NCBI GenBank assembly: GCA_040902305.1
Contig: JBBDXN010000158.1
Location: 1-63,950, forward strand
DNA: 63,950 nucleotides
Source of the DNA: Candidatus Rokuibacteriota bacterium
GTDB lineage: Bacteria; Methylomirabilota; Methylomirabilia; Rokubacteriales; CSP1-6
Direction of reading: 5' to 3'
In this document: positions 22,896-38,168 of the stretch, one piece after another
Numbering within the stretch: the stretch's first letter is position 1
How the letters are laid out: each line of letters starts with the position of its first letter
Notes under the pieces: generated by a model
The model's database searches: none
What the model was told of the DNA's origin: nothing
What the model saw: only the letters and a program-made list of their open reading frames with translations
Program-made: the position numbers and the translations under genes

Positions 22896-23258
22896 GTGGG
22901 CAAGGTCATGGTTGTCGATGACGCCGTGTCAGAACTGAAGATGATCGAAGGCATTCTCAAGTCCGCGGGACACGAGGTCGTCTCCTACGAGCACGGCGAA
23001 CTCCTGGAGGATCGCGTCGTCGAGGAGCGGCCGGACGTCCTGTTGCTGGACATCGTGATGCCCAAGCGCAACGGCTACGAAGTGCTGCGGGGGCTCCGGC
23101 GGGACCCCCGCACCAAGGACACCCCGGTGGTGTTCGTGAGCTCCAAGAACCAGGAGAGCGATCGGCTGTGGGGACAGCGGCAGGGGGCGGCCGACTACCT
23201 GGCCAAGCCGTTCACCGCGGAGCAGCTCCTCGGCGTCGTACGTCAGTTCGTGAAATAG
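22896..23258 (+). CDS. Single-domain response regulator (CheY/PilH-like)
   Basis: VVDD, LLLDIVMP, SSK, KPF; GAGGAGG ribosome-binding site before GTG 22896. Confidence 0.88.
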   Translation: MGKVMVVDDAVSELKMIEGILKSAGHEVVSYEHGELLEDRVVEERPDVLLLDIVMPKRNGYEVLRGLRRDPRTKDTPVVFVSSKNQESDRLWGQRQGAADYLAKPFTAEQLLGVVRQFVK

Positions 23259-23263
23259 GGCCG

Positions 23264-23791
23264 ATGACCCAGACCCCCGGCGTCGGTTCTCCGGCCCTCC
23301 CCGAGGCCCTGGACGCCCCTCCGGCGCTGCGGGCCTGCCTGTTCGCCCTGGCCGGCGTCCGCTTCGCGGTGGACGTCCGGAGCGCGCGCGAGGTGGTGCT
23401 CTTCGACGAGATCACCACCGTCCCCCTGGCCCCTCGGCATCTCGTGGGCGTGGCCAATCTCCGGGGCACCGTGATGCCGATCGTCGATATCCGGGCCCTT
23501 CTCGACCTGCCGGTTGAGCAGCTCGGTCCCAGCGTACGCACCCTCGTTCTGCGCGCAGGCCCGTTGCAGGCGGCGGTGGTCGTGGACGCGGTGCTCGGGC
23601 TCGAGCCCTTCGAGGAGATCTCGCCGCCGGTGCCCGGCGACCCAGGGCCCTCGGCCCCCGGCCGGCGGCGCTTCGGGGCTGGCTACGTGAGGTGGGGCGC
23701 CGAGAGCGTGCTCCTCCTCGATGCTCCGAAGATCCTGGAGGCGCTGAGGCCCCACCAGCTCCGACCGGGGAGCGGAACCGCGGAGGAATAG
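23264..23791 (+). CDS. cheW: CheW-family coupling protein
   Basis: TTVPLAPRHLVGVANLRGTVMPIVD, LLLDAPKIL. Confidence 0.88.
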   Translation: MTQTPGVGSPALPEALDAPPALRACLFALAGVRFAVDVRSAREVVLFDEITTVPLAPRHLVGVANLRGTVMPIVDIRALLDLPVEQLGPSVRTLVLRAGPLQAAVVVDAVLGLEPFEEISPPVPGDPGPSAPGRRRFGAGYVRWGAESVLLLDAPKILEALRPHQLRPGSGTAEE

Positions 23792-23793
23792 AG

Positions 23794-26142
23794 ATGTCTC
23801 AAGCCAAAGGGTCCAGCCTCGGCATTCGAGGGAAGCTCACCCTGCAGACGCTTGTGGTGGGTATCGTGCCGCTCCTCCTCCTCGGGGGCGGCCTGTACGT
23901 CACTCTGGGCCAGTCGGCCGACATCTTCGGCCGGAGTCTGGAAGAAACGGTCGAGGCGACCGTGGAGAACGCGGCCCGGGATCTCGCGGCGCAGATCGAT
24001 ACGTACATGGAAGAGCGGATCAAGGACGCGCTGACCTGGGCATCGGACCCGCTGGTGGTCGACGTCGCCGTTCGCGCCGACGTGGTGGCGAGAAGCGAGA
24101 AGAGATGGCCAACGTATCCGAGCATCACCCAGCAGCCAGACACGATCAAGCGGATCGAGGCCGAGATGGCGGCCACCCGGGCGCTGGATCCGCTCCCGCA
24201 AGCCACCCGATACCTGAAGGACCAGAAGGCGCAGTCCAAGCTCTTCAAGGAAATCTTCGTCACCGATCGAAACGGATACAACGCGGCGATCAGCAACCTG
24301 ACGTCCGACTTCGTGCAGAGCGACGAGGAGTGGTGGACCGGCGCGTACGCGAAAGGGGTCTACATCTCCAAGGTGAAGTTCGACGAGTCGGCCGGGGTGT
24401 GGGCCACCGAGATCAACGTCCGTATTCACGATCCGCGCACCAAGGAGATCGTCGGAGTCATGAAGGCGGTGCTCGACGTGTCCGCGATCCAGGTCCTGGC
24501 CTCTCGCGTCATGGGGAAGATCCCCGGGGCTGACGTGAAGGTCGTGGTCCGGCGCGACGGCAACCTCCTCGCCGACACCGCCGTCAAGCACGATCGGAAG
24601 TTCATCATGTCGACGGAGGGGAACCTGCTGAAGCGGAACTACCGGCCGGCTGAGCTCCTGGCGCAGGGCTCGCAGCCGGCCGGGCACCTGCTCGGGACGA
24701 ACGAGTCTTACGGGACGGGCCCCGCGGTGGAGCAGGTGGTCGGCTATGCCCTGACGGGCGGGAAGGGAGCGTTCGAGGAGCTTCCGGATTTCGAGGGTCT
24801 CGGGTGGGGCGTCATCGTCGGCCAGAGCAAGCAGGTCGCCTTCGCCACCCTCCACCAGCTCCGCGCGCAGCAGCGCTGGCTGACCTGGCTCGTCCTGGGC
24901 GTTCTCCTGGTCGCCGCCCTCGGCACCGTGACGCTGGGCTCGGTGCTGGGCCGGCGGATCACCGAGCCGATCCGGGAGGTCAGCGAGGCGGCCCGGAGGC
25001 TGAGCGCCGGCGATCTGACCGTCCAGATACCCGTGCGCTCGAGCGACGAGATCGGTCGCCTGGCCAGCACCTTCAATGATTCGGTGGTGCGCCTGCGCTC
25101 CCTGGTCCAGACCGAGACCGACCGCGACGAGGAGCGGCGCAAGCGCGAGGAGCTGCAGCAAAACGTCATCAAGTTTCTCGACACGGTGGTGGAGATCGGC
25201 AAGGGCGACCTCACCCGGCGCGGTGAGGTGACGTGGGACGTGCTCGGCAACGTGGTGGACGCCATCAACCTGATGGTGGAGGAGATCGCGTCGATCGTCG
25301 GTGACGTGCGGCAGGCGGCCTTGCGGGTGGCGTCGGGCTCTCAGGACACGATCCGGATCACCGGCGAGCTCGCGGAAGCGGCGCAGGCTCAGTCCCGGGA
25401 CGCGGTGAGCGTCACGCGCTCGGTGGCGGACGTGACGGTGTCGGTGCGCCAGGTCGCGGACAGCGCCGACCAGAGCGCGAAGGCGGCCCGTCAGGTGCTC
25501 CAGGCGGCGAGCAAGGGCGAGGAGGCCGTGCGCAACAGCCTGGCGAGCATGCAGCAGATCCGGGCCGAGGTACAGACGATCTCCAAGAAGATCAAGTCCC
25601 TCGGCGATCGCTCCCTCGAGATTTCCAACATCGTGAACACCATCCAGGACATCGCGGCCCAGACCCACCTCCTCGCGCTCAACGCGTCCATCGAAGCGGC
25701 GGGAGCGGGGGAAGCGGGGCTCCGGTTCTCCGTCGTGGCCGACGAGGTCCGGAAGCTGGCCGAGCGGGCTACTCAGGCCACCCGGGACATCGGGACGCTC
25801 ATCAAGGGCGTGCAGGTCGAGACCCAGGAGGCGGTGGTGGCGATGGAGTCCGGGACGCGCGAGGTGGAGTCCGGCTACGAGGTGAGCCAGAAGGCGGAGG
25901 AGGCCCTCCAGGAGATCGGGAAGATCTCGCAGACCTCTTCCGAGCTGGCCGCCGAGATCTCCCACGCGTCCCAGACACAGGTCCGGGGCGCCGAGGCCAC
26001 CGCGGGGGCTGTGCAGACGATCGCGAGCGCGGCGGTGAAGACGGAGCAGGGCGTGCAGCAGAGCCGGAACAACGCCGAGCAGCTGGCGCGCCTGGCGGAA
26101 GAGCTGACCGCCAAGCTGTCCCGCTTCAAGCTGGCGAGCTGA
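23794..26142 (+). CDS. Methyl-accepting chemotaxis protein (PilJ-like; extracellular Cache-type sensor, HAMP)
   Basis: Two TM helices flanking a large sensor region, HAMP DEIGRLA..FN, signalling hairpin QTHLLALNASIEAAGAGEAGLRFSVVADEVRKLAE. Confidence 0.93.
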   Translation: MSQAKGSSLGIRGKLTLQTLVVGIVPLLLLGGGLYVTLGQSADIFGRSLEETVEATVENAARDLAAQIDTYMEERIKDALTWASDPLVVDVAVRADVVARSEKRWPTYPSITQQPDTIKRIEAEMAATRALDPLPQATRYLKDQKAQSKLFKEIFVTDRNGYNAAISNLTSDFVQSDEEWWTGAYAKGVYISKVKFDESAGVWATEINVRIHDPRTKEIVGVMKAVLDVSAIQVLASRVMGKIPGADVKVVVRRDGNLLADTAVKHDRKFIMSTEGNLLKRNYRPAELLAQGSQPAGHLLGTNESYGTGPAVEQVVGYALTGGKGAFEELPDFEGLGWGVIVGQSKQVAFATLHQLRAQQRWLTWLVLGVLLVAALGTVTLGSVLGRRITEPIREVSEAARRLSAGDLTVQIPVRSSDEIGRLASTFNDSVVRLRSLVQTETDRDEERRKREELQQNVIKFLDTVVEIGKGDLTRRGEVTWDVLGNVVDAINLMVEEIASIVGDVRQAALRVASGSQDTIRITGELAEAAQAQSRDAVSVTRSVADVTVSVRQVADSADQSAKAARQVLQAASKGEEAVRNSLASMQQIRAEVQTISKKIKSLGDRSLEISNIVNTIQDIAAQTHLLALNASIEAAGAGEAGLRFSVVADEVRKLAERATQATRDIGTLIKGVQVETQEAVVAMESGTREVESGYEVSQKAEEALQEIGKISQTSSELAAEISHASQTQVRGAEATAGAVQTIASAAVKTEQGVQQSRNNAEQLARLAEELTAKLSRFKLAS

Positions 26143-26175: not shown

Positions 26176-29103
26176 ATGGCTGATCGACGCGAGCGGGAGC
26201 TGCTGCTGGGGATCTTCCTCATGGAGGCCTGGGATACCGCCGGGGCTCTGGAGGAGGGCCTCGGCCTGCTCACGGCCGCGAACGCCCCGACGGAGCAGAC
26301 CCTGGCCCGGCTCGTCGTGTTCGCGCACCGCCTGAAGGGGTCGGCGGCGCTGCACGGGTTTCCGGGCGTGTCAGATGTGGCCGCCGCCGCCGAGCGGCTC
26401 CTCGATCGGGCTCCCGGCGCGCCTCCCGAGGAGCGGGTGCGGGCGGCCGCTTTCCTGGACGGGCTCGTCGGGCTCCTGAAGGACGTCTTCGACGGCATCA
26501 GCGCCGTCGGCGTGGAGGACGCGACCCGCATCGGGGAGTTCAGGGCTCGCTATCCCGCCTTCGTCTCCGCCACCGTCGCCTCGCCGCCGGCGCCGCGATC
26601 GGTGGCGGCCGCGCCCGAGCCGACGCCGGTCTCGCAGTTGACCTCGGACCTGCGACGCTTCTTCGCCGAGGGCGGCGAGGTCCTCGAGTACTTCCTGCCC
26701 GAAGCGACCGAGCATCTCGAAGCGATGACGGCGGCCCTCCTGGCGCTCGAGGTCGGCGCGCGAGACGAGGACACTCTCGCGACCGTTTTCCGGGCCGCGC
26801 ACACCCTGAAGGGCGCGGCGTATACGGTCGGGTGCGCGCCTCTCGGCGACGCGACCCACGAGATCGAAGATCTCCTGGGCGCGATCCGCGAGCAGCAGTT
26901 CCCGCTCACGGCGCCCGTGACGGAAGCACTCTTCGCGGGGGCGGCGGCCATCAAGCAGGTGCTCCAGACCGGGGTGACCGTCTCCGACGAGACCGCGCGG
27001 GCGCTGGAGCGGGCGACGCACGACCTTCGCGCCCTGATGATCGCCGAGCGCCCGTTGATGGAGCCCTCACGGATCGAGACTCCCGAGCCCGTGCTCGTCG
27101 AGGCTCCGGTCGCCGTCCCGCCGTCGCCCATGGAGCTTCCGGGCTTCGCCCGTCCGGAGTTCCTGGCGCGCCTCGAGGCGCTGCCGCGGCCGGCCCCCCG
27201 CTCGGCCAGCGCGCCCACGGGCCCCAGCATCCGGGTACCCGTCGAACGGCTCGACACCCTGATGAACCTGGTGGGTGAGCTGATGATCGTGCGGAGCCGT
27301 CTCGACCGGCGCCTGGCGCAGCTCGATCAGGTGAGCGAGCTGCTCCTGGCCAGCAGCACGCGCCTCGGCCAGGTCGGCCGCGACTTCGAGTTCCGGCGCC
27401 AGGCCCCCGCGCTGCCGAGCAATGGGTACCGCTTCGAGCGCGCCGACGCGGGGGAGATGCGCGACATCTCGGAGCTCTTCGCCGAGCTCGAGTTCGACCG
27501 CTACGACGACGTCAGCATCCTGGCCCGCAGCGTGACCGAGATGTCCGCCGACGTGGCGGAGGTGCGGAGTCAGCACGTGACCCTGCTGAGGAGCATCCGG
27601 GAGGACTCCGTCCAGCTCCAGCGCCTCACCACGGCCCTCCGCAAGGAGGTCGCCCGCGCGCGCATGGTGCCGATCGGACGGCTCTTCGCGCGGGTGGCCC
27701 AGCAGGTGCGGGAGGTGGCCCGCGCCACCGGTAAGGTGGTCACTCTCACGGTACGCGGCGAGGCGGCGGAGGTGGACAACGGAGTCATCGAGCAGATCGC
27801 CGACCCGCTCCTGCACCTGATCCAGAACGCGGTCGCTCACGGCATCGAGCCGGCCGCCGAGCGCGAGAGTCACGGCAAGGCCGCCCAGGGGCAGGTGACG
27901 CTATCCGCCTCCCAGGAAGGCGGCTTCATCCTGGTCGGGGTGGAGGACGACGGGCGCGGCATCGACATCGAGCTGCTGCGCCGGCACGCGGCGGAGCGAG
28001 GGCTCCTGCCCGCCGCCGAGGCGGCCACGCTGCCCGACCGCGACGCGTTGAACCTCATCTTCGTGCCGGGCTTCAGCACCGCGACCACGGTGACCCAGAC
28101 CTCCGGACGCGGCGTAGGCCTCGACGTGGTCCGCACCAACGTCAGCCGTCTCAACGGCGAGATCCACGTCGAGACCGAGCACGGCCGCTTGACCCGCTTC
28201 GTGCTCAAGCTGCCGCTCACCGTGGCCATCGCCGACGCGCTCATGGTCCGGTGCGGACCGGAGACCCTGGCCTTCCCGCTCACCGCGGTGAGCGTGATGC
28301 GGTCCGTCGCGCCCCACGAGATCCTCGCCGCGGGCGGGCGGGAGACGATGCGGTTGGACGATCGGGTCATCGACCTCCTTCGCCTCGACCAGGTGCTGGG
28401 CCTCGCGGCGTCCCCCCCGCCCACCCGGCTGCCGGTGGTCGTCATGCGCGGCGGCGGCCGGCCCTTCGGGGTGGTGGTGGACGACCTCCTTGGCAAGGAA
28501 GAGATCGTCATCAAGAGCCTGGGCGCGCTCCTCGAGGGCGCCGGCCCGTTCTCGGGAGCCACGATCTCGGGTGAAGGGCGCGTCATCCTGTTGCTCGACC
28601 CGACTCACCTGCGCGAGGCCGCATCGCGGAAGCCGTCCTTCGCCGCGCGAACGCCGCGCGCGGATGCGGCTCGCGCGGGCGATCCGATCGAGGGCCGCCC
28701 GCGCGTCATGCTGGTGGACGATTCCGTGAGCATCCGGAAGTTCGTGGGTCAGATGCTCGAGAAGGCCGGCTTCCACGTCATCACCGCGGTGGACGGTCAG
28801 GATGCCCTGCAGCAGCTCATGGACGTCTCGGTCGACGTCGTCGTCACCGATCTCGAGATGCCGCGGCTCAACGGCTATGCCCTGATCGAGGACCTGCGGC
28901 GGCGGTCGTCTACCCGTGAGGTTCCGGTGGTCGTGATGACGACGCGGGCGGGCGACAAGCACGTGAGCCTGGCCCGGCGCCTGGGCGTTCACCACTACGT
29001 CACCAAGCCGGTGGACGAGCAGAGCTTCGTGCGGATCGTCGAATCGATCGCGGTGGGCGAGCGGACGTTCGGTTCCGCGCTCGCCGGGAGCGGTGGGGAA
29101 TAG
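26176..29103 (+). CDS. cheA: Hybrid CheA/ChpA-like kinase (two Hpt, dimerisation, HATPase, CheW and REC domains)
   Basis: AHRLKG and AHTLKG Hpt motifs, HLIQNAVAHGIE, DDGRGID, GFST, SGRGVGLDVV, C-terminal TDLEMP...KP. Confidence 0.92.
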   Translation: MADRRERELLLGIFLMEAWDTAGALEEGLGLLTAANAPTEQTLARLVVFAHRLKGSAALHGFPGVSDVAAAAERLLDRAPGAPPEERVRAAAFLDGLVGLLKDVFDGISAVGVEDATRIGEFRARYPAFVSATVASPPAPRSVAAAPEPTPVSQLTSDLRRFFAEGGEVLEYFLPEATEHLEAMTAALLALEVGARDEDTLATVFRAAHTLKGAAYTVGCAPLGDATHEIEDLLGAIREQQFPLTAPVTEALFAGAAAIKQVLQTGVTVSDETARALERATHDLRALMIAERPLMEPSRIETPEPVLVEAPVAVPPSPMELPGFARPEFLARLEALPRPAPRSASAPTGPSIRVPVERLDTLMNLVGELMIVRSRLDRRLAQLDQVSELLLASSTRLGQVGRDFEFRRQAPALPSNGYRFERADAGEMRDISELFAELEFDRYDDVSILARSVTEMSADVAEVRSQHVTLLRSIREDSVQLQRLTTALRKEVARARMVPIGRLFARVAQQVREVARATGKVVTLTVRGEAAEVDNGVIEQIADPLLHLIQNAVAHGIEPAAERESHGKAAQGQVTLSASQEGGFILVGVEDDGRGIDIELLRRHAAERGLLPAAEAATLPDRDALNLIFVPGFSTATTVTQTSGRGVGLDVVRTNVSRLNGEIHVETEHGRLTRFVLKLPLTVAIADALMVRCGPETLAFPLTAVSVMRSVAPHEILAAGGRETMRLDDRVIDLLRLDQVLGLAASPPPTRLPVVVMRGGGRPFGVVVDDLLGKEEIVIKSLGALLEGAGPFSGATISGEGRVILLLDPTHLREAASRKPSFAARTPRADAARAGDPIEGRPRVMLVDDSVSIRKFVGQMLEKAGFHVITAVDGQDALQQLMDVSVDVVVTDLEMPRLNGYALIEDLRRRSSTREVPVVVMTTRAGDKHVSLARRLGVHHYVTKPVDEQSFVRIVESIAVGERTFGSALAGSGGE

Positions 29104-30849: not shown

Positions 30850-33743
30850 GGCCTCTGTCCATGAGAACGTCCTACCGCTCCGTGTCCAGCGCCCGGCGGC
30901 TTTCGTCATGGCTGATGGCCGTGCTGGGCCTGGCCGCGTATGTCGGCCTGATCTACGCTTTGACCCACGTGCCGCTGCAGTTCGAGGTTCCGCTGCCGAG
31001 CTGGGGCACCGCGATCGTTCCGCCGGTCGCATACGGTCTGCTGGTATTGCTGTGGGTCCGCCGCCCATCCGTCCTGCGCTGGCTCGTTGGCACTGCCGTC
31101 CTGACCGGGCTTCACCTCCTGCTGGGCATGTCGCGGGAACCTCTCACCGCGCTCCTCGATCCGGCCCTCGCGGGACGTCCGCTGCCCTGGGTCCTGCCGC
31201 CGCCCCTCCCCGAGATGATCGGACTGATGCTGTTGCTGGTGCCGCTCCGGGACGTCCTCCGCGCGCGGGTTCGCCTCGCGCGTGAGCGGGGGAGCGGGGC
31301 GGGGCGGCCGTCGCCGAGCCCGCGCTCCCGGGTCGCTGCCGCGCCGCGCCTGCAGCCCGCGGCACCGGCCGAGGTCAGTGGCTCCCTGAGCGAGGCCCTG
31401 CTCCCGCGGAGCGAGCCGCTGGTCGAGCCAGTGGTGACCGCGGCTCCGGTGGCGCCGCCGCCTGCGACGTCGCCCGTTGCGCCGGCCCCGGCCGAGGAGC
31501 CGCGGAGACGGAGAACCGCCGCCCGCGCCGAGCGCCGGCGCGAGGCCGAGTCGGTCCGTCCCAGCCGTCGCTCGGACGTGACGTTGCGGATCGCGCTCGA
31601 CCGGATCATGGGACAGCTGCCTCCGGGTACCTTCCTCGCGCCGGAGGACGAGGTGGCGGCGAGCTTGAGCGAGCCGGGCTACCTGCGAGTCTCGGGCGAG
31701 CTCGTGGTGACCCAGCTCTCGGAAGGGGTGGCCCGGGTCGCGTGGAGCGACATCGCCGATCAGTTCCCGCCCCACCTCGTCGGGCTGAGCACGAGCGAGA
31801 TCACCGAGCATCTGGGCGATGGCCTGACGCTCCCGCTCGACGAGGTGATCGGTCAGCTTCCGCACGAGCTGTTCGTCGCGGATACGCCGGAGATCGACAT
31901 GGCCGGGATCAACCGGATCCCGGTGCCGTTCCAGCCTCTCGAGGAGTCCGGCCCCGCGCCGAGCCTGCTGCGTGAGGCTGCGCCCGCGCTCCCGGGGAGT
32001 CCAGAGATCAAGCCGGCGGCCGAGATCAGACCCGAGCCTGCCGCGCAAGCGCCGCGCCCGGTCGCTCCGCCCGCCGTCGCTGCGCCGGCGGCCGTGGAGA
32101 CGCCGCCCCCGGCGCCTCTGGCTCGGCGGCCGGAGCCACCGATGGACATGACGCCGGCCTCGTCCGACATCGGTGAGCCGACGGTCCGGATCTCCTTCGG
32201 CCGGGTGGCCTCGGAGCTTCCCGCGGAAGGCTTCAGCGTCCCGCTGGAGCAGGTGGCGGAGCGGATGCGGCATCCCGGGTTGTTGCTGATTCCCCAGTCC
32301 GTGGTCACCCCTCAGCTCGCGGAAGGATTGATCCGGGTGAGCTGGGACGTGGTCGCGCTGCAATTCCCGCGCGACGCGGTGAGCGTGTCGGATGCCGAGA
32401 TGACGGAGCGCCTCCCCAATGGGATCCGTCTTCCCCTCGACGAGGTCATCCGGCAGGTTCCGTCGGACTTGTTCACGGCCGCCGGTCCGGCCGCCGATGT
32501 CCGCGGGCTCGAGAATTTCCCGGCACCCTTCCAGCCCCTGCTGTCGGATCCGGCGCCCGAGCCCGCGCCGGCGGTGGCATCGGTCTCGGAGCCCGTCGAG
32601 CCCAGCCCGGTGGCCGCCGAGCCGCCGCCGGCGCCCAGTCCCGAGGACCCGGACGAGACCATGCTCACGCTGGTCGAGCCGGAGCCCGCCCTCGCCGAGC
32701 CCGCGGAGGCCGAGGCCAGCGCTGAGCCGGAGCGGGCCGAGGCGACCCCGGTCGTCGAGCTGGTCGAGCCCGACGCGTCCCGGGTGGTCGAGGCGGCCGT
32801 CGTCGTCGATGAGCCGGAGTCGGTCATGGTCGCGCCCGCCGCGATACCCGTCCCGCCCTACGAGCCGCCGCCCGCGCCGGCGTCGCCTTGGACCGAGCCG
32901 GTGCCCGCCGGGGCCACCCCGGTCTGGTCCTCGCCACCGCCCGCGCCGATCGTGGCTCCCCCCGTGCCCGGCCCCGCCGAGACGGCCGAGGCCCGGCGCA
33001 TCGTGGCCCTGCTGGCGCCGATCGCGTCGTTCGACGTGAGCGTGCAGGCGGTGGAAGGCGTCACCATCTTCGCGATGGCTTCGCCGTCGAGGGCGCAGGA
33101 GACGGCGGTCGCAGCGGCGGGTCTTGCGCTGCCCTTGCTGATGGACCGCCGCCTGCAGTGGCCGGTCGAACAGATCACCCTCCGCGGGCCCGAGACGGCG
33201 CTGGTGTTGACGCCGCTGGGTGGCCCGCCTGATCGCGGGCCCGTCCTGGCCACGGCGGTGCCGCGCGGCGGCGGGCTCGCGCTGCTCGAGATCCTCTGCC
33301 GGCGTGCCGCGGTCGCTCGGCGGTCCGGGTCCGCGCCGGCCGACACCTTGCCGGCCCGGGGGCACGGCCTCGCCCCGGCTCCGGTCTCGAGCCGGGCGGC
33401 GGGGCTGACGTCGGGTCTGACCGCCTTCGGCGATGTCGCCGCGTCCGTCTTGCGGGACGCGGAAAGCGAAGCGGTTCTCTATTTCTTCCTGCCGGCGGGA
33501 GGCGATGTGCCCGCGGTGGGAGCGTTCGCGCAGGACCTCCAGGCCGTCATGCGAAAGGCGGCGGGATCCGGCGCCGTGTTCCGGACCGCGATCGTGCGCT
33601 CCGGCGACGCGCTACTTGTCATCCAGCCCGAGGAGATCGGGCATGGGCGGTCGATCGTCATCGTCGCGGGCGGGTCGGTAACCCGGCCCGGCCTGGCCTA
33701 CCGCCAGGTCGAGCGCGCGGCGGCGACGCTGATGTCGGCCTGA
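30846..33743 (+). CDS. Large membrane-anchored protein with a duplicated 121-aa domain, Pro/Glu-rich linkers and two C-terminal roadblock-like domains
   Basis: About four N-terminal hydrophobic helices; internal repeats 31578-31940 and 32178-32540; in operon between the REC-roadblock gene and mglA; exact start uncertain. Confidence 0.7.
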   Translation: MRPLSMRTSYRSVSSARRLSSWLMAVLGLAAYVGLIYALTHVPLQFEVPLPSWGTAIVPPVAYGLLVLLWVRRPSVLRWLVGTAVLTGLHLLLGMSREPLTALLDPALAGRPLPWVLPPPLPEMIGLMLLLVPLRDVLRARVRLARERGSGAGRPSPSPRSRVAAAPRLQPAAPAEVSGSLSEALLPRSEPLVEPVVTAAPVAPPPATSPVAPAPAEEPRRRRTAARAERRREAESVRPSRRSDVTLRIALDRIMGQLPPGTFLAPEDEVAASLSEPGYLRVSGELVVTQLSEGVARVAWSDIADQFPPHLVGLSTSEITEHLGDGLTLPLDEVIGQLPHELFVADTPEIDMAGINRIPVPFQPLEESGPAPSLLREAAPALPGSPEIKPAAEIRPEPAAQAPRPVAPPAVAAPAAVETPPPAPLARRPEPPMDMTPASSDIGEPTVRISFGRVASELPAEGFSVPLEQVAERMRHPGLLLIPQSVVTPQLAEGLIRVSWDVVALQFPRDAVSVSDAEMTERLPNGIRLPLDEVIRQVPSDLFTAAGPAADVRGLENFPAPFQPLLSDPAPEPAPAVASVSEPVEPSPVAAEPPPAPSPEDPDETMLTLVEPEPALAEPAEAEASAEPERAEATPVVELVEPDASRVVEAAVVVDEPESVMVAPAAIPVPPYEPPPAPASPWTEPVPAGATPVWSSPPPAPIVAPPVPGPAETAEARRIVALLAPIASFDVSVQAVEGVTIFAMASPSRAQETAVAAAGLALPLLMDRRLQWPVEQITLRGPETALVLTPLGGPPDRGPVLATAVPRGGGLALLEILCRRAAVARRSGSAPADTLPARGHGLAPAPVSSRAAGLTSGLTAFGDVAASVLRDAESEAVLYFFLPAGGDVPAVGAFAQDLQAVMRKAAGSGAVFRTAIVRSGDALLVIQPEEIGHGRSIVIVAGGSVTRPGLAYRQVERAAATLMSA

Positions 33744-33752
33744 GGCGATTCG

Positions 33753-34370
33753 ATGTCGATCATCAACTATGCGCACAAAGAGATCAGCTTCAAGATCGTC
33801 TACTACGGCACCGGTGTCGCCGGAAAGACGGCCAACCTGCAGTACATCTACCGCGGTCTGCCGGACGTGAACCGCGGCAACATGGTGTCGCTCGCGACCG
33901 GCGACGACCGGACGCTCTTCTTCGACTTTCTACCCGTCTCGGCGGTAACGGTGCGGAACTTCGTGGCGAAGTTCCAACTCTACACGGTGCCCGGTCAGGT
34001 CTACTACAACATGACGCGCAAGCTCGTTCTCCGCGGCGTGGACGGGGTCGTCTTCGTCGCGGACTCCCAGTGGGATCGGCTCCGCGAGAACGTCGAGAGT
34101 TTCAGAAACCTGGAAGAGAATATGAAAGAGTACGGGTACAATCTCGATGAGATCCCGTACGTGATTCAGTACAACAAGCGTGATCTGCCCAACGTGGCTC
34201 CGGTCGAATACCTGGAGTACATGCTCAACCGGAAGAGCCGGCGGGTTCCGTACTTCGAATCGGTCGCCGTCGAGGGCAAGGGGGTGTTCGATACGCTGAA
34301 CACCGTATCCCGCATGGTCCTCGTCGCTGGGTTCGGACAAGAACAGGGGGCGCTCAATGAGTCAAAATGA
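33753..34370 (+). CDS. mglA: MglA-family small Ras-like GTPase
   Basis: KIVYYG.G..GKT, DRTLFFDF, YTVPGQ, VFVADSQ, QYNKRDLP. Confidence 0.93.
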   Translation: MSIINYAHKEISFKIVYYGTGVAGKTANLQYIYRGLPDVNRGNMVSLATGDDRTLFFDFLPVSAVTVRNFVAKFQLYTVPGQVYYNMTRKLVLRGVDGVVFVADSQWDRLRENVESFRNLEENMKEYGYNLDEIPYVIQYNKRDLPNVAPVEYLEYMLNRKSRRVPYFESVAVEGKGVFDTLNTVSRMVLVAGFGQEQGALNESK

Positions 34371-34845
34371 CAACCTGGCCATCCACGAGGAGGACGCGGA
34401 GCGGATCAACGGCGTTCTCCTGCACTTTCTGGGCGAGTCGGGGGCGATGGAAGCGCTCCTGATCGACCGGAGCGGACAGCTCCTGGCCCGAGGCGGCGCC
34501 TCGCGATCGCTGGACACCGTCTCGCTGTCCGCGCTCGCCGCCGGCGCATTCAGCTCGACGGCGGCGATGGCCCGCCTACTCGGCGAGACCGAGTTCACGA
34601 TGCTGTTCCACCAGGGCGTGAAGGAGAGTATCCACGTGGCGGCGGTGGATGAGCACGCGATCCTGCTCGCCATCTTCGACAGCCGGACCACCGTGGGCAT
34701 GGTCCGCCTCTTCGCCAAGGAGGCGGGCACCGCGGTCGGGGCCATCCTGGCCGAGACCCGCACGCGGCCGCAGCGCACGGGAGTGCTGTCGACGCCGCTT
34801 CACAAGGACGAGGTGCAGTCCTCTTTCCGGGAGCGTCCGGTCTGA
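34357..34845 (+). CDS. mglB: MglB-family roadblock protein (GAP of MglA)
   Basis: LLIDRSGQ, LDTVSLSALAAGAF, LLGE.EF.MLFHQG, GMVRL; overlaps mglA. Confidence 0.9.
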   Translation: MSQNDNLAIHEEDAERINGVLLHFLGESGAMEALLIDRSGQLLARGGASRSLDTVSLSALAAGAFSSTAAMARLLGETEFTMLFHQGVKESIHVAAVDEHAILLAIFDSRTTVGMVRLFAKEAGTAVGAILAETRTRPQRTGVLSTPLHKDEVQSSFRERPV

Positions 34846-34865: not shown

Positions 34866-36935
34866 ATGGCGAAAATCGAGAACAGGGCCTCGCTGTCTTC
34901 GGAAGAGAAACGGTCCCTGGCCGAGTCGGCCCGTCTCTGCGAGATGATCGTGGAGGCCAACCCCTCGGATACCGGGGCGCTCGAAACCCTGAAGGAGATC
35001 TACACGAAGCTCGGTGATCGGGACGGCCTGGCCCGGGTCGTCGCGCGCCTGGCCGGCACCGTGGGGGGGCGGCCCTCGGCCAGCGTGCCTCCGGCGGCCG
35101 AGTTCACCGCGGATCCGGCGCCCGCGCCGGATGAGGTGGAAGCGCTCCCGGCCCCGATCGACTTCGGCTTCGCCCAGGGTCCGGGCAAGCGCGGCGCCGC
35201 CTTGCCGACCGAGCGGCGTCAGGGCAGCTTGTCGCGCCTCGGGGACCGCCTCGTGGCCGAGAGGCTGATCAGCACCGAGCAGCTCCAGCGGGCACTGGCC
35301 GAGCAGAAGGGCAGCGCGGACAAGCTGGGGACGATCCTGGTGCGGCTGCAGTTCATCACCGAGGACAGCCTCGTCTCGTTCCTGTCCAAGCAGTACGCGA
35401 TTCCCGCCATCACGGTGGCGCAGGTGGACCCGGATCCGGACGTGCTGAAGCTGGTGCCGGAACAGATCGCCAAGAAGCACAGCGTGCTGCCCATCAAGCG
35501 CATGGGGAACACCCTCACCCTGGCGATGGCGGATCCGACCAACGTTTTCGCGCTCGACGACGTCGGGTTCATGACCGGCCTGCAGATCCAGCCGGTGGTC
35601 GCCTCGGAGGCGGCCATCCGCAAGGCCTTCGAGCGGCTCTACGAGACCGGCGCCAGCGTCACCGACATGATGAGCGAGCTGGAGGAGGCCGACACCGACG
35701 TCGAGGTGGTGGAGGACGGGGAGGCGGCCTTCAGCAAGGCCGACGTCTTCGACCTCAAGGAGTCGGCGGACGAAGCCCCGGTGGTGCGGCTCATCAACAT
35801 GATCCTGACCGACGCGATCCGGCGCGGCGCCTCCGACATCCACCTGGAGCCCTACGAGAAGGTCTTCCGGGTCCGCTTCCGCATCGACGGCGTGCTGCAC
35901 GAGATCATGACGCCGCCCAAGCGCCTCGAGGCCGCGCTGACCTCGCGGGTCAAGATCATGGCCACCATGGACATCGCGGAGCGGCGTCTTCCCCAGGACG
36001 GCCGTATCAAGCTGCGCTATCACCAGCGCGAGATCGACTTCCGGGTCTCGACGCTCCCGACGATCTTCGGCGAGAAGACCGTCATGCGTATCCTCGACAA
36101 GGAGGCGCTGCAGCTCGACCTGGGCGCGCTCGGGTTCGACCCGTGGAGCCTCGAGCAGTTCACCAAGGCGATCAACAGCCCCTACGGCATGATCCTGATC
36201 ACGGGGCCGACCGGCTCCGGCAAGACCACCACGCTGTATTCGGCGATCCACACCATCAACTCGCCGGACATCAACATCATGACCGCCGAGGATCCGGTCG
36301 AGTACAACCTGAAGGGCGTCAACCAGGTGCAGATCAACGACGAGATCGGGCGGACCTTCGCGGCCTGTCTCCGCAGCTTCCTGCGCCAGGACCCCGACGT
36401 GATCCTCGTCGGTGAGACCCGCGATCTGGAGACGGCCCAGATCGGCATTCGCGCCGCCCTCACCGGCCACCTTGTGCTCTCGACGCTGCACACCAACGAC
36501 TGCCCGTCGACGCCCGCGCGGCTCCTGGACATGGGCATCCCGCCCTTCCTCGTGTCCTCATCGCTCCAGCTCATCCTGGCCCAGCGCCTCGGCCGGCGCG
36601 TCTGCAAGGATTGCAAGGAGCCGTACGAGGCGACCGAGGAGAGCCTGGTGCCCTACGGGCACGTGCCGCTGGGGCTCGGCACCGTGAACTTCTACAAGGG
36701 CAAGGGCTGCCAGACCTGCAATTTCACGGGCATGAAGGGCCGGGTGGCCATCTACGAGGTCATGCCGATCACCACCGAAGTTCGCGACCTGATCTTGCGC
36801 AACGCGACGTCCAACGAGATCCGTGACGCCGCCTGCTCGCAGGGCATGAAGACGCTGCGGCAGAACGCCCTGCAGAAGGTACTCGACGGCGTGACGACGG
36901 TGGAGGAAGTGCTGCGGGTGACCCTGGGGACCTAA
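34866..36935 (+). CDS. pilB: Type IV pilus assembly ATPase PilB/GspE with TPR-like and MshEN N-terminal modules
   Basis: ASDIHLEP, RLPQDGR, Walker A GPTGSGKTT, LRQDPDVI, TGHLVLSTLH, CKDC..CQTC. Confidence 0.92.
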   Translation: MAKIENRASLSSEEKRSLAESARLCEMIVEANPSDTGALETLKEIYTKLGDRDGLARVVARLAGTVGGRPSASVPPAAEFTADPAPAPDEVEALPAPIDFGFAQGPGKRGAALPTERRQGSLSRLGDRLVAERLISTEQLQRALAEQKGSADKLGTILVRLQFITEDSLVSFLSKQYAIPAITVAQVDPDPDVLKLVPEQIAKKHSVLPIKRMGNTLTLAMADPTNVFALDDVGFMTGLQIQPVVASEAAIRKAFERLYETGASVTDMMSELEEADTDVEVVEDGEAAFSKADVFDLKESADEAPVVRLINMILTDAIRRGASDIHLEPYEKVFRVRFRIDGVLHEIMTPPKRLEAALTSRVKIMATMDIAERRLPQDGRIKLRYHQREIDFRVSTLPTIFGEKTVMRILDKEALQLDLGALGFDPWSLEQFTKAINSPYGMILITGPTGSGKTTTLYSAIHTINSPDINIMTAEDPVEYNLKGVNQVQINDEIGRTFAACLRSFLRQDPDVILVGETRDLETAQIGIRAALTGHLVLSTLHTNDCPSTPARLLDMGIPPFLVSSSLQLILAQRLGRRVCKDCKEPYEATEESLVPYGHVPLGLGTVNFYKGKGCQTCNFTGMKGRVAIYEVMPITTEVRDLILRNATSNEIRDAACSQGMKTLRQNALQKVLDGVTTVEEVLRVTLGT

Positions 36936-36946
36936 TTAGCTCCGGA

Positions 36947-37378
36947 TCAGGGGGTCCGCCACGAGCCGCGCAGGCGATCCACCGCGCGGCCGAGCGCGGT
37001 GCGGACCCCCTCGTTGTTGACGTTGCGGTCCGCGACCAGGGTCACGTAGCCGACCGGACTGCCTCCCACGAAGACGGTTCCGTCGTCCGCCGAGAACAGG
37101 GCCGTCCGGAAGGCGCCCCGCTCCAGGCGGCTGGACCCCAGCTCCAGCTCTCTCCCCAGGGTGGCCGCGAGCGCGGCCAGCGCTTCGACCGGGAAGCGGG
37201 GCGGCAGCTCCGACGTGATCACGAGACCGTCCGGCGTCACGATGAGGCCGCCGCGGACGCCGTCGAGACGGATCAACTCGAAGAGCGTCTCGCGGAACGC
37301 CTGCGCGCGCGACGATGGACGCGGCACGGAGGAGCCGCCGGGCGGCGTCGAGTCGACGGGCGGCTGCGGGTCGGCCAT
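36947..37378 (-). CDS. Stand-alone roadblock/LC7 domain protein (MglB/MglC-like)
   Basis: GVRGGLIVTPDGLVI..EALAALAA..G pattern. Confidence 0.8.
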   Translation of the reverse strand: MADPQPPVDSTPPGGSSVPRPSSRAQAFRETLFELIRLDGVRGGLIVTPDGLVITSELPPRFPVEALAALAATLGRELELGSSRLERGAFRTALFSADDGTVFVGGSPVGYVTLVADRNVNNEGVRTALGRAVDRLRGSWRTP

Positions 37379-37382
37379 GGGA

Positions 37383-38168
37383 TCAGACCTTGATGTTCAG
37401 ATCGGTCCACAGCCGGCCCACCTGGACCAGCCCGGCCCCGACCTCGACCTCGCGGGCGAGCGTGACCCCCAGGATCACGCCGCCGTCGCTGCGCAGGAAG
37501 GTCGTCTCCGACGCGCCCTCGACCACGCCCCGCCGGAGCGCTCCGAGGCCGGCCCGAGCGAGCGTGGCGGAGGCGATGCGGTAGACCTGGGTCATGTGCA
37601 GGGCGAGCTGCTTCTGACGCTCTTCACCACCCTGCGCGAACACGAGCGTGCCGTCGGTGTGCGTGAGCACCAGGTCGCGCGCGCCGGGTGGCAGCCGCAG
37701 GCGCTCGGCGGAGATGGTGCCGATGGCGGTCGAGACCGACGCCGCGGCGGGTGCCGTCCAGGTGGCCACCATTTCCTGCAGCGCCTTCGCTTCGGGGAAA
37801 TCCGGGAAGTACTGGATCGCCCGATCGAGGAACGGCCGGCAGCCCTCGATATCGCCCTCCTCGAGCGCGATGCGCGCCAGGCCGAACAGGGCCCGCGGAT
37901 GGTACGGATCGAGCGCGAGCACTCTCCGGAACGACGCCCTGGCCGCCGGCATCTCGCGGAACACCACGTGCAGGTAGGCGTCCAGGAGATGTCCGACCGC
38001 GATGTTGGGCGAGATCCGCAACCCCTCGGTGATCAGCTCGGCGGCGTCTTCGTAGCGACCTTCGTGGCGGTACTGATCGGCGAGGCGAAAGAGGGACGCG
38101 GCGGAGCGCGGCCGCACGAGCCCGGTGATGCCGCTCCAGGTGCGCTCGAGGAACGTCGCTAGGCCCAC
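37383..38168 (-). CDS. TPR protein with a C-terminal degenerate roadblock domain
   Basis: About three TPRs (FRRVLALDPYHPRALFGLA), then LVLTHTDGTLV..AGLGALRRGVVEG; GGAGG ribosome-binding site before GTG 38168. Confidence 0.7.
   Translation of the reverse strand: MGLATFLERTWSGITGLVRPRSAASLFRLADQYRHEGRYEDAAELITEGLRISPNIAVGHLLDAYLHVVFREMPAARASFRRVLALDPYHPRALFGLARIALEEGDIEGCRPFLDRAIQYFPDFPEAKALQEMVATWTAPAAASVSTAIGTISAERLRLPPGARDLVLTHTDGTLVFAQGGEERQKQLALHMTQVYRIASATLARAGLGALRRGVVEGASETTFLRSDGGVILGVTLAREVEVGAGLVQVGRLWTDLNIKV

What the first reader, a model, noticed from the sequence alone, without database searches (positions are those of the whole stretch)
22896..38168. Integrated chemosensory - MglA GTPase - multi-roadblock - PilB locus: candidate undescribed polarity/motility switch
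Seen: ten tightly spaced or overlapping co-directional genes (CheY, CheW, MCP, CheA-REC, pseudoREC-DUF4388, REC-roadblock, large membrane protein, MglA, MglB, PilB) plus two convergent roadblock genes; about six roadblock-type domains accompany one GTPase; no cheR or cheB in the window. Known: in Myxococcus the Frz chemosensory system, MglAB/RomR and the pilus motors are encoded at separate loci and linked indirectly; cyanobacterial pilus taxis operons use PATAN regulators and generally lack CheR/CheB. Inference: here the whole chain from receptor to small GTPase to pilus ATPase is encoded together and wired by domain fusions, a hybrid of those two paradigms. I cannot verify from the sequence that it is undescribed.
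Basis: partly seen in the sequence, partly recalled or inferred. Interest (0 to 1): 0.85.

Follow-up and report, generated by a model that had tools for sequence, protein, structure and literature searches.

The report
Chemosensory–MglA–roadblock–PilB gene cluster, Rokubacteria
An uncultured soil bacterium (Rokubacteria) keeps its only chemotaxis-type sensor, its only MglA polarity switch, six roadblock domains and its only pilus-extension motor in one conserved gene cluster, which suggests how a sensory signal could be passed directly to the machinery that decides where pili are built.

Summary
Window 22896-38168 carries ten co-directional, tightly packed genes (CheY, CheW, dCache-MCP, CheA-REC, pseudoREC-PATAN, REC-roadblock, a 965-aa membrane protein, MglA, MglB, PilB) and two convergent genes (roadblock; TPR-roadblock). 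Six roadblock domains are supported: three by Pfam, one by AlphaFold plus Foldseek, two by structure comparison only. In this 92%-complete genome the cluster holds the only MCP, CheA, CheW, PATAN, MglA, MglB and type IVa PilB. CheR and CheB occur only inside an unrelated 1523-aa fusion kinase.

The cluster is from Rokubacteria (Methylomirabilota). Its core is conserved in every sufficiently long related locus (21 of 21). PilB is inside it in 16 of 21. Sister families have only an mglB-mglA pair.

The 965-aa protein founds an unannotated family (4 TM helices, repeated ~105-aa domain, tandem roadblock). A distant lineage has it beside pilB-pilC-pilS without mglA.

Best reading (about 0.55): a chemosensory pathway feeds a phosphorylatable REC-roadblock protein into a membrane-anchored roadblock stack that sets MglA state and PilB placement. 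I rate it a new variant of a known kind. My six literature searches found no description of it. All function is inferred.

The parts
22896..23258 (+). CheY-type single-domain response regulator
   Evidence: Pfam Response_reg 2.6e-23. It is 88-97% identical in same-genus loci.
23264..23791 (+). CheW adaptor; the genome has no other stand-alone CheW
   Evidence: Pfam CheW 3.7e-23. The own-genome search finds CheW domains only here and inside CheA.
23794..26142 (+). Transmembrane receptor (MCP): dCache_1 sensor, HAMP, signalling domain; the only MCP of the genome
   Evidence: Pfam. The dCache_1 score sits exactly at the cut-off. It is the single MCPsignal match in the genome. Hydrophobic segments flank the sensor at residues 14-41 and 362-388. 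About 141 residues lie from the hairpin tip to the C-terminus.
26176..29103 (+). CheA-type histidine kinase with two Hpt stretches and a C-terminal receiver domain
   Evidence: Pfam Hpt (2 stretches), H-kinase_dim, HATPase_c, CheW and Response_reg. No second CheA appears in the genome by tblastn.
29107..30003 (+). Pseudo-receiver plus PATAN (DUF4388) protein
   Evidence: Pfam Response_reg 1e-12 and DUF4388 8.4e-13 at residues 172-278. The phospho-Asp position is Ser or Thr in 25 of 25 sequences. It is the only DUF4388 in the genome.
30007..30849 (+). Phosphorylatable receiver fused to a roadblock domain through a Pro/Ala-rich linker
   Evidence: Pfam Response_reg 7.7e-25 and Robl_LC7 2e-08. 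The DD, D, S and K receiver residues are kept in 25 of 25 sequences. The roadblock part matches CvnB5 3leq_A (8.2e-07) and MglB 3t1s_A (3.4e-04).
30846..33743 (+). 965-aa membrane protein of an unannotated family: about 4 TM helices, two copies of a ~105-aa domain (residues 245-345 and 445-545) and a C-terminal tandem roadblock-like pair (710-823 and 842-964), joined by Pro/Ala/Glu-rich disordered linkers
   Evidence: No Pfam or NCBIfam family. AlphaFold2 model. Internal repeat at hhalign 100%. Atlas structure matches to tandem roadblock proteins. Hydropathy and charge distribution place both termini in the cytoplasm. The true start may be the Met at residue 6.
33753..34370 (+). MglA small GTPase; the only one in the genome
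   Evidence: phmmer against T. thermophilus MglA 3t12_A (2.2e-72) and M. xanthus MglA 5ymx_A (4.5e-68). The alignment shows GxxxxGKT, the DRT arginine, TVPGQ and NKRD kept. No paralogue in the genome.
34357..34845 (+). MglB roadblock protein (GTPase-activating partner of MglA); overlaps mglA by 14 nt
   Evidence: Pfam Robl_LC7 3.4e-14. PDB MglB 6h5b_B at 4.8e-25.
34866..36935 (+). Type IVa pilus extension ATPase PilB with a c-di-GMP-type MshEN domain and a ~120-residue N-terminal extension; the only T4aP PilB in the genome
   Evidence: NCBIfam TIGR02538 at 749.2 bits against a cut-off of 675.65. NF053729 c-di-GMP motif at 66.7 bits against 38, residues 124-176. The second PilB-like ATPase, on C146, lies in a type II secretion cluster. 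No Pfam family matches residues 1-125.
36947..37378 (-). 143-aa stand-alone roadblock protein, convergent with pilB
   Evidence: Pfam Robl_LC7 3.8e-06, 27 bits against 23. PDB roadblocks 7yh1_D (2.8e-05) and 7f8m_A (3.5e-05).
37383..38168 (-). TPR plus roadblock fusion protein (261 aa from the GTG at 38168)
   Evidence: TPR families in Pfam. AlphaFold2 model with TPR at residues 20-138 and a beta-beta-alpha-beta-beta-beta-alpha domain at 165-256. Foldseek hits to roadblock structures and MglB. The start is supported by in-frame stops just upstream in two homologues.

Best explanation
This is a single signalling-to-motor module that steers type IV pilus-based surface movement.

Shown by sequence: the cluster contains the genome's only chemosensory pathway, its only MglA/MglB switch, all of its roadblock domains, its only PATAN domain and its only T4aP extension ATPase.

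Inferred mechanism:
1. A periplasmic ligand at the dCache receptor changes CheA autophosphorylation.
2. CheA passes phosphate to CheY, to its own receiver and, crucially, to the receiver of the REC-roadblock protein.
3. Phosphorylation changes how that roadblock domain pairs with the other roadblock units: the MglB dimer, the 143-aa roadblock, the TPR-roadblock and the membrane-anchored tandem roadblock of the 965-aa protein.
4. The re-pairing shifts the local balance of GTPase activation and release for MglA, as roadblock-dimer stacking does in the Myxococcus RomR/MglC/MglB complex.
5. MglA-GTP then fixes or releases PilB at the pilus base. It acts with the non-phosphorylatable PATAN adaptor, the TPR protein and the 965-aa membrane scaffold. 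Pili are thereby extended at one cell pole or site and can be switched to another.
6. c-di-GMP binding at the PilB MshEN domain would be a second input.

There is no methylation-based adaptation, because no CheR or CheB accompanies the pathway.
For: - The parts are single-copy and co-located in the genome.
- The genes are packed tightly, with overlaps at REC-roadblock/965-aa (4 nt) and mglA/mglB (14 nt).
- The order of all 12 genes is identical in 8 of 8 same-genus loci.
- In 31 species-level loci with MglA at 75-99% identity, CheA, pseudoREC-PATAN, REC-roadblock and the 965-aa homologue are present in 21 of 21 loci with at least 8 kb upstream. MglB, the roadblock and the TPR-roadblock are present in 21 of 21 loci with at least 4.5 kb downstream.
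- The REC-roadblock receiver keeps all phospho-acceptor residues in 25 of 25 sequences. The PATAN protein's receiver has lost the Asp in 25 of 25.
- MglA keeps the catalytic residues and is closest to solved MglA proteins. MglB is a bona fide MglB.
- PilB passes the T4aP PilB equivalog cut-off. It has been separated from pilT-pilC-pilS-pilR, which lie on contig C130.
- The 965-aa family is next to pilB-pilC-pilS in an unrelated lineage.
- Precedents read in papers: PATAN regulators bind PilB1 in Synechocystis (passages). Roadblock dimers stack and are re-paired by MglA-GTP in M. xanthus, where the way the Frz regulators reach the polarity module is still called unknown (abstract and passages of PMC10329633).
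Against: - Nothing here is experimental and the organism is uncultured. No RNA data were available.
- PilB is absent from the cluster in 5 of 21 informative loci, so the pilus motor is not an obligatory neighbour.
- The two roadblock domains of the 965-aa protein fail Pfam in 0 of 20 homologues and rest on predicted structures only.
- The loci compared are relatives within essentially one family (84 of 158 genomes of family f1, 1 of 20 of f13, 0 of 72 elsewhere in the phylum sample). Conservation of order could therefore partly be inheritance rather than selection.
- No GEF (RomR/RomX-like) or co-GAP was identified or searched for.
- Cell shape and polarity of these bacteria are unknown.
Confidence: 0.55

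Rival explanations
1. The cluster controls the amount or timing of pilus assembly, adhesion, DNA uptake or biofilm behaviour rather than the direction of movement. The chemosensory pathway and MglA would act as an on/off gate for PilB, with no pole-to-pole switching.
For: PilB carries a c-di-GMP-type MshEN motif. From my own recollection, this motif is typical of motors gated by surface or biofilm signals. There is no CheR or CheB for adaptation, which a temporal gradient-sensing system usually needs. The passage of PMC4316618 seen notes that Bdellovibrio MglA acts in prey invasion and pilus formation.
Against: MglB, which is present here, is what makes MglA a spatial switch in the characterised systems (passages). 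Six roadblock domains and a phosphorylatable REC-roadblock are more machinery than a simple gate would need.
Confidence: 0.2
2. MglA and the roadblock set govern something other than pili, for example another motility engine, cell division or envelope polarity. PilB would be a passenger that entered the cluster in some lineages together with the 965-aa protein.
For: PilB is missing from the cluster in 5 of 21 loci while everything else stays. Sister families keep an mglB-mglA pair with no che or pil genes within 10 kb in 5 of 5 loci examined. MglA function therefore does not require pil neighbours.
Against: The 965-aa family is a constant member (21 of 21) and sits directly upstream of pilB-pilC-pilS in a distant lineage. 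The PATAN domain has a documented link to PilB. The cluster's PilB is the genome's only T4aP PilB.
Confidence: 0.13
3. Two independent systems, a chemosensory operon and an mglAB-pilB operon, merely lie side by side. Their joint conservation reflects shared descent within one bacterial family.
For: All composite loci found come from one family plus one outlier genome. Relatives are not independent observations.
Against: The two fusion proteins that combine a receiver domain with a GTPase- or pilus-associated domain lie exactly between cheA and mglA. Gene junctions are 3-9 nt or overlapping. The arrangement survives divergence down to 34-50% identity of the less conserved members. These are the genome's only che genes, and I searched for no other output such as flagellar genes.
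Confidence: 0.1

Closest known systems
Myxococcus xanthus Frz chemosensory system plus the MglA/MglB/RomR-RomX/MglC/RomY polarity module acting on PilB through SgmX, FrzS and SopA
   Same: It also combines a Che-type kinase with a fused receiver, response-regulator outputs, MglA with the roadblock GAP MglB, an additional roadblock protein stacked on MglB, a TPR effector and polar placement of PilB (passages of PMC10329633, and PMC11580455). MglA here matches M. xanthus MglA at 4.5e-68.
   Different: In Myxococcus the parts are at separate loci. [quoted passage not shown] Frz has a CheR and a CheB that are always clustered with the kinase (passage of PMC4546325), and this cluster has none. Here a receiver is covalently fused to a roadblock domain, a tandem roadblock is membrane-anchored, and a TPR is fused to a roadblock. 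RomR, RomX, RomY, SgmX and FrzS homologues were not searched for.
Cyanobacterial Pix/Tax/Pil chemotaxis-like systems with PATAN-domain (PatA-type) response regulators
   Same: It is a Che-like pathway for pilus-based taxis with a PATAN regulator. PATAN regulators bind PilB1 (passages).
   Different: From recollection, the PatA type carries PATAN at the N-terminus and a phosphorylatable receiver. Here the order is receiver then PATAN, and the receiver is a pseudo-receiver. Those systems are not described with MglA/MglB or roadblock proteins.
Thermus thermophilus MglA/MglB
   Same: It is the closest solved MglA (3t12_A, 2.2e-72) and its MglB also matches (1j3w_A, 1.9e-18).
   Different: The control search found no CheW or MCP in T. 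thermophilus, so no Che pathway accompanies MglAB there.
Streptomyces conservon (CvnA kinase, CvnB roadblock, CvnC, CvnD GTPase)
   Same: A histidine kinase, a roadblock protein and an MglA-family GTPase are encoded together (passage). The roadblock of the REC-roadblock protein matches CvnB5 best among solved structures (3leq_A, 8.2e-07).
   Different: The conservon kinase is a classical membrane sensor kinase and not a CheA with receptor and CheW. It has no pilus motor and no PATAN. Its GTPase belongs to a different MglA group (passage).
Eukaryotic Ragulator-Rag GTPase complex
   Same: Layers of roadblock dimers tethered to a membrane control a small GTPase. The authors of PMC10329633 themselves compare it with MglC/MglB (passage). 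The REC-roadblock domain weakly matches LAMTOR2 (E about 0.03).
   Different: It is an analogy of architecture only. There is no orthology, no phosphorylation input through a receiver domain and no pilus output.
Pseudomonas aeruginosa Pil-Chp system with the FimV polar hub
   Same: It is a Che-like pathway with two antagonistic response regulators that polarises pili (abstract of PMC10519157 in the listing). From my own recollection, it uses a large membrane-anchored scaffold with long low-complexity linkers.
   Different: It has no MglA/MglB and no roadblock proteins. The 965-aa protein has no detectable similarity to any Pfam family, including those of FimV.

Membership tests
MglA family of Ras-like GTPases (group 1-like) | Sequence similarity over the full length to experimentally defined MglA | tested here: met
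   3t12_A at 2.2e-72 over residues 1-192. 5ymx_A at 4.5e-68 over residues 1-191.
MglA family of Ras-like GTPases (group 1-like) | P-loop GxxxxGKT, intrinsic arginine finger, catalytic glutamine in TVPGQ, and NKxD | tested here: met
   The alignment shows GTGVAGKT, DDRTLFF, YTVPGQ and YNKRD aligned with the same motifs in both solved MglA proteins. These columns are invariant in 20 of 20 relatives. The roles of the residues come from the passage and from recollection.
MglA family of Ras-like GTPases (group 1-like) | Formal placement in groups 1-5 by phylogeny | not tested
   No tree was built with classified reference sequences.
MglB (roadblock GAP of MglA) | Robl_LC7 domain, similarity to solved MglB, and a gene adjacent to mglA | tested here: met
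   Pfam 3.4e-14. 6h5b_B at 4.8e-25. The gene overlaps mglA by 14 nt. It scores below the cut-off of the Thermus-specific NCBIfam equivalog NF052242 (81.3 bits against 200).
Type IVa pilus assembly ATPase PilB | Score above the curated cut-off of the equivalog model TIGR02538 | tested here: met
   749.2 bits against 675.65. The GspE model scores 628.6 against 630.25, just below its cut-off.
Chemosensory pathway (Che-type) | MCP, CheW and CheA (Hpt, dimerisation, ATPase and CheW-like domains) encoded together with a CheY | tested here: met
   Pfam.
Tfp class of chemosensory systems | Class-specific CheA and CheW profiles and a 40-heptad receptor | tested here: inconclusive
   Class profiles were not available. 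The architecture (two Hpt stretches, C-terminal receiver) and the 141-residue C-terminal arm of the receptor (about 20 heptads) fit what I recall of the class. This is not a classification.
Frz-type system of Myxococcus | CheR (FrzF) and CheB (FrzG) always clustered with the kinase and receptor | tested here: not met
   There is no CheR or CheB in the window. The only copies are domains of a fusion kinase on contig C14. The defining statement is in the passage of PMC4546325 seen.
PatA-type PATAN response regulator | PATAN domain present | tested here: met
   DUF4388 at 8.4e-13, 48.9 bits against a cut-off of 25.
PatA-type PATAN response regulator | PATAN N-terminal to a phosphorylatable receiver | tested here: not met
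   The receiver is at residues 6-116 and PATAN at 172-278. The phospho-Asp is replaced by Ser or Thr in 25 of 25 sequences. The family's domain order is recalled from the name 'PatA N-terminal domain' (passage).
Roadblock/LC7 domain (six claimed copies) | Pfam Robl_LC7 above the gathering score | tested here: met
   Met for three copies: REC-roadblock (34.3 bits), MglB (52.8 bits) and the 143-aa protein (27 bits), against a cut-off of 23. These are the only three matches in the genome.
Roadblock/LC7 domain (six claimed copies) | Roadblock fold for the TPR protein's C-terminal domain | tested here: met
   Foldseek hits 7f8m_A (E 2e-5, TM 0.73 by target, rmsd 2.4 over 103 columns), 9jue_F, 3kye_A and 6hjm_C. 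The model has mean pLDDT 84. There is no sequence-profile support.
Roadblock/LC7 domain (six claimed copies) | Roadblock identity of the two C-terminal domains of the 965-aa protein | tested here: inconclusive
   Pfam gives 0 of 20 homologues at E<=10. Foldseek on the whole model found nothing. In favour are the model topology, Atlas structure matches to tandem roadblock proteins at TM 0.74/0.59 and 0.66/0.62, and hhalign C2 against the 143-aa family at 73% and C1 against C2 at 20%.
RomR/RomX GEF, RomY co-GAP, MglC, SgmX, FrzS of Myxococcus | Homologues present in the cluster or genome | not tested

The most novel reading that the evidence does not exclude
The cluster encodes a bacterial counterpart of a Ragulator-like device. 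A stack of roadblock dimers is tethered to the cytoplasmic membrane by the tandem roadblock of a new scaffold family. A CheA-phosphorylated REC-roadblock protein inserts into or leaves this stack and so directly re-pairs the layers. That would flip MglA between GTP and GDP states and move the PilB motor. It would be the first case where a chemosensory phosphorylation signal enters a small-GTPase polarity switch through a covalent receiver-roadblock fusion. It would also offer a concrete model for the unsolved step in Myxococcus, namely how the Frz response regulators act on the polarity module.
Probability: 0.25. Interest if true: 0.85.

Novelty: new variant of a known kind. Interest (0 to 1): 0.62.

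Why it matters
In the best-studied system, Myxococcus, the sensory pathway, the GTPase switch and the pilus motor are encoded apart. [quoted passage not shown]

Here evolution has written the connections into gene order and domain fusions:
- a normal receiver domain fused to a roadblock domain;
- a pseudo-receiver fused to PATAN;
- a TPR fused to a roadblock;
- a membrane protein ending in a tandem roadblock.

These fusions yield specific, cheap biochemical tests of who talks to whom. They can be done with recombinant proteins even though the organism is uncultured.

The work also defines an unannotated protein family. It has 260 cluster representatives at E<=0.001 and no Pfam domain in 10 of 10 representatives tested. 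It accompanies pilB in two distant lineages and may be a general pilus-motor scaffold.

Finally, it shows that the abundant soil Rokubacteria of this family possess one, and only one, chemosensory pathway, dedicated to this module.

Tried and rejected
Foldseek of the whole 965-aa model against the PDB gave no match at E<=0.001. The model has five ordered parts joined by disordered linkers.

Pfam at E<=10 on 20 C-terminal segments did not find Robl_LC7.

Complex prediction of MglA with the C-terminal tandem domain of the 965-aa protein returned 'no answer'. It counts neither for nor against binding.

The look-up of sequencing runs listed no RNA holder. Nothing can be said about expression, and read laying was not used.

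The search for homologous proteins with the roadblock part of the REC-roadblock protein returned only near-identical Rokubacteria proteins among the 120 listed. With the M-domain profile and longer lengths it again listed mainly the two-copy Rokubacteria form. The range of these fusions in other phyla therefore stays open.

The Atlas lead that Verrucomicrobiota carry related M-domain, REC-PATAN and roadblock proteins could not be checked, because no taxonomy is attached to the metagenome contigs L060-L065.

A formal class for CheA and the MCP, and a group for MglA, were not obtained. Supplementary tables of PMC4316618 (gene neighbourhoods of every mglA) and of PMC4546325 were closed. They might list a che or pil neighbourhood that I did not see.

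I considered that the second PilB-like ATPase on C146 might be the housekeeping pilus motor. I rejected this because it sits among GspF, J, K, L/M, C and D genes.

I considered that the CheB-CheR protein on C14 might serve this pathway. That cannot be excluded, but it is a 1523-aa fusion with PAS, kinase and receiver domains on another contig.

Full report
**What is there.**

The window is 70% G+C and is contig C158 of a 4.65-Mb, 92%-complete metagenome-assembled genome. Between a divergently transcribed thioredoxin gene and two membrane glycosyltransferase-like genes lie twelve genes.

Ten are on the + strand, with gaps of 2 to 33 nt or with overlaps. Pfam identifies them as follows:
- CheY.
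- CheW.
- A transmembrane receptor with dCache_1 (at the cut-off), HAMP and MCP signalling domains.
- A CheA with two Hpt stretches, dimerisation, ATPase and CheW-like domains and a C-terminal receiver.
- A receiver plus DUF4388 (PATAN) protein.
- A receiver plus Robl_LC7 protein.
- A 965-aa protein without any family.
- A small GTPase.
- A Robl_LC7 protein.
- A T2SSE ATPase with an MshEN domain.

Two genes converge on this operon: a 143-aa Robl_LC7 protein and a TPR protein.

**Identity of the key parts.**

The GTPase is a true MglA. It matches solved MglA of Thermus thermophilus (2.2e-72) and Myxococcus xanthus (4.5e-68) over its whole length. The P-loop, the DRT arginine, TVPGQ and NKRD are all in place.

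The next gene is MglB (4.8e-25 to 6h5b_B).

The ATPase passes the curated cut-off of the type IVa PilB equivalog (749 bits against 676) and carries the MshE-type c-di-GMP motif.

The receiver of the REC-roadblock protein keeps every phospho-acceptor residue in 25 of 25 sequences. The receiver of the PATAN protein has Ser or Thr in place of the phospho-Asp in 25 of 25. One protein is therefore a signal receiver and the other a constitutive adaptor.

**The roadblock count.**

Three domains pass Pfam, and they are the only three Robl_LC7 matches in the whole genome.

The TPR protein's C-terminal 90 residues fold as beta-beta-alpha-beta-beta-beta-alpha. They match solved roadblock proteins and MglB by Foldseek (E about 2-5e-5, TM 0.63-0.73 by target).

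The AlphaFold2 model of the 965-aa protein (47-sequence alignment) shows these parts:
- four N-terminal helices;
- two confidently folded ~100-residue domains (245-345 and 445-545) that are copies of each other (hhalign 100%);
- two C-terminal alpha/beta domains (710-823 and 842-964) with roadblock topology;
- Pro/Ala/Glu-rich disordered linkers joining all of these.

Pfam does not see the last two domains in any of 20 homologues, and Foldseek on the whole model failed. The Atlas structure search aligns residues 709-965 with tandem roadblock proteins of Promethearchaeota and Actinomycetota (TM 0.74/0.59 and 0.66/0.62). It aligns residues 847-965 with a 127-aa roadblock protein (TM 0.76 by target).

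I accept six roadblock-type domains, the last two on predicted structure only.

Hydropathy and the distribution of Arg and Lys place both ends of the membrane domain, and hence all the soluble domains, in the cytoplasm.

**Uniqueness in the genome.**

The cluster holds the only MCP, the only CheA, the only stand-alone CheW, the only PATAN domain, the only MglA and MglB, and all roadblock domains.

CheR and CheB domains occur once, inside a 1523-aa CheB-CheR-PAS-kinase-receiver protein on another contig.

Of four T2SSE ATPases:
- one is this PilB;
- one is GspE inside a type II secretion cluster;
- one is a PilT-like gene followed by pilC, a PilS-like kinase and a sigma-54 regulator on contig C130;
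- the fourth, on C27, is only a partial match (profile positions 134-286 of 370) and I did not examine it further.

The pilus extension motor gene has thus left its usual pilT-pilC company and sits with mglAB.

**Whose genome, and how conserved.**

Names attached to homologues and record titles place the cluster in Rokubacteria/Methylomirabilota.

All twelve genes are in the same order in 8 of 8 same-genus loci. In two other genera they are in order as far as the contigs reach.

In 31 species-level loci with MglA at 75-99% identity:
- CheA, pseudoREC-PATAN, REC-roadblock and the 965-aa homologue are present in 21 of 21 loci with at least 8 kb upstream. The MCP is present in 19 of 21; the other two may lie beyond the 10-kb flank.
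- MglB, the roadblock and the TPR-roadblock are present in 21 of 21 loci with at least 4.5 kb downstream.
- PilB is present in 16 of 21. In L042, L044, L045, L046 and L055 mglB is followed directly by the roadblock pair.

In a sample of 251 genomes of the phylum, the repeated domain of the 965-aa protein is found in 86 genomes, a count that includes the window's own genome. By family, without the own genome, that is 84 of 158 genomes of family f1, 1 of 20 of f13 and 0 of 72 in eleven other families. MglA at E<=1e-20 is found in 123 of the 251, including families f6-f12, where it is only 51-58% identical.

Five of five loci from those other families show only an mglB-mglA pair, in the opposite gene order. 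No che, pilB, PATAN or extra roadblock genes lie within 10 kb.

The composite cluster is therefore an innovation of one family, not a property of mglA in the phylum. These genomes are relatives and are not independent samples. Three genomes in the tallies are flagged unpublished (see Tried and rejected).

**A new family tied to PilB.**

A profile of the repeated domain finds 260 cluster representatives (E<=0.001) among 1.84 billion, 179 of them below 1e-10. Proteins carry one to eight copies. Of the 149 best representatives, 102 also have the C-terminal tandem domain. None of 10 tested has a Pfam family.

A subgroup with lower Gly/Ala/Arg/Pro content led, through a metagenome scan, to six contigs of 57-62% G+C. 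On the 167-kb contig the homologue shares the N-terminal membrane domain (hhalign 93.5%). It is followed on the same strand by a small coiled-coil protein, a TPR-MshEN protein, PilB, PilC, a PilS-like kinase and a receiver protein. No MglA, MglB or CheA lies within 10 kb. A second contig shows the same PilB position.

This family therefore travels with pilB in two distant lineages. In Rokubacteria it is the gene immediately upstream of mglA.

**How it most likely works.**

The facts shown are the parts list, the conservation, the intact or degenerate state of the receivers, and the neighbourhoods. The rest is inference by analogy with two studied systems.

In M. xanthus, MglB and MglC roadblock dimers stack with RomR. 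MglA-GTP breaks that stack. How the Frz regulators reach the module is stated to be unknown (PMC10329633, abstract and passages). In Synechocystis, PATAN regulators bind the PilB1 motor (bioRxiv 10.1101/2021.06.11.447907, passages).

I propose the following. CheA phosphorylates the REC-roadblock protein. This changes which roadblock units pair on the membrane-anchored tandem roadblock, which sets MglA's nucleotide state locally. MglA-GTP, together with the PATAN, TPR and scaffold proteins, then holds PilB at the site where pili are to be extended.

I give this about 0.55. The rivals are an on/off gate for piliation (0.2), a non-pilus output of MglA with PilB as passenger (0.13) and mere adjacency (0.1).

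**Comparison with the known and novelty.**

The system works like the Myxococcus Frz-Mgl-pilus chain and like cyanobacterial PATAN-based pilus taxis, but it is a member of neither:
- It lacks the CheR/CheB that always accompany Frz (passage).
- Its PATAN protein has the reverse domain order and a dead receiver.
- Its receiver-roadblock, TPR-roadblock and membrane tandem-roadblock proteins have no described counterpart that I could find.

Wuichet and Sogaard-Andersen report only that some group 1 and 5 mglA genes lie near PATAN genes, and that neighbourhoods otherwise vary widely (passages).

Six full-text searches found no paper on such a cluster. The term sets were:
- MglA + roadblock + chemosensory + PilB;
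- Rokubacteria + pili + chemotaxis;
- PATAN + MglA + PilB;
- mglA, mglB, cheA, cheW, PATAN;
- MglA + Methylomirabil;
- MglA + Rokubacteria.

The last two returned nothing at all. The Rokubacteria genome paper mentions only twitching-motility and chemotaxis-receptor genes in general terms (passages). JGI's automatic annotation already names the fusion 'CheY-like chemotaxis protein/predicted regulator of Ras-like GTPase activity'.

**Verdict.**

I rate this a new variant of a known kind, with an unannotated scaffold family as a by-product. Interest is 0.62: a specialist would find the fusions a useful guide to an open mechanistic question, but everything functional remains to be shown.

Noticed in passing
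G000 contig C14, locus L059:1909-6477 (- strand): A 1523-aa protein fuses CheB methylesterase, CheR methyltransferase, several PAS domains, HisKA, HATPase and a receiver. It holds the genome's only CheB and CheR domains, although the genome has a single MCP on another contig.
   Followed up: partly
G000 contig C130, locus L058:8351-13828: pilT-like, pilC, PilS-like kinase and sigma-54 response regulator genes stand together without pilB. pilB has moved into the che-mgl cluster.
   Followed up: partly
G000 contig C146, locus L056:149-11206 (- strand): A type II secretion cluster: GspE, GspF, a GspJ-like and a GspK-like protein, a PilN-domain protein, GspM-like, GspC-like and two secretin-domain ORFs.
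   Followed up: partly
L060:7783-17206 (metagenome contig, 59% G+C): A distant homologue of the 965-aa protein sits between a PAS kinase and a coiled-coil protein, a separate TPR-MshEN protein and pilB-pilC-pilS. ExeA-like (AAA_22 plus peptidoglycan-binding) and T2SSB-like genes lie upstream. The stand-alone TPR-MshEN protein may correspond to the N-terminal extension of the Rokubacteria PilB. I did not test this.
   Followed up: partly
window 34866-35240 (PilB residues 1-125): PilB has a ~120-residue N-terminal extension ahead of the MshEN domain. It has no Pfam match. tblastn alignments of relatives start at residues 1-10, so it is conserved.
   Followed up: partly
L042, L044, L045, L046, L055 (also L043 and L052 on shorter contigs): In these Rokubacteria lineages pilB is missing from the cluster. 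In L052, L055 and L073 the roadblock and TPR-roadblock genes are on the same strand as mglAB instead of convergent.
   Followed up: partly
L071 (G100, family f13): One genome assigned to a different family of the class carries the composite cluster with MglA 75% identical to the window's. The genome has 8% contamination, so either binning error or gene transfer is possible.
   Followed up: no
record titles of L026, L032, L033, L035, L054: Several assemblies holding near-identical copies of this Rokubacteria cluster are titled as Deferrimicrobiaceae, Acidoferrum, Limnocylindria, Nitrosotalea or Nitrosocosmicus. The titles look inconsistent with the gene content.
   Followed up: no
window 25000-25400 (MCP, between HAMP and the signalling domain): About 207 residues separate the HAMP domain from the hairpin tip, against 141 from the tip to the C-terminus. 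This suggests an extra, unrecognised module (perhaps a second HAMP-like unit) in the descending arm.
   Followed up: no
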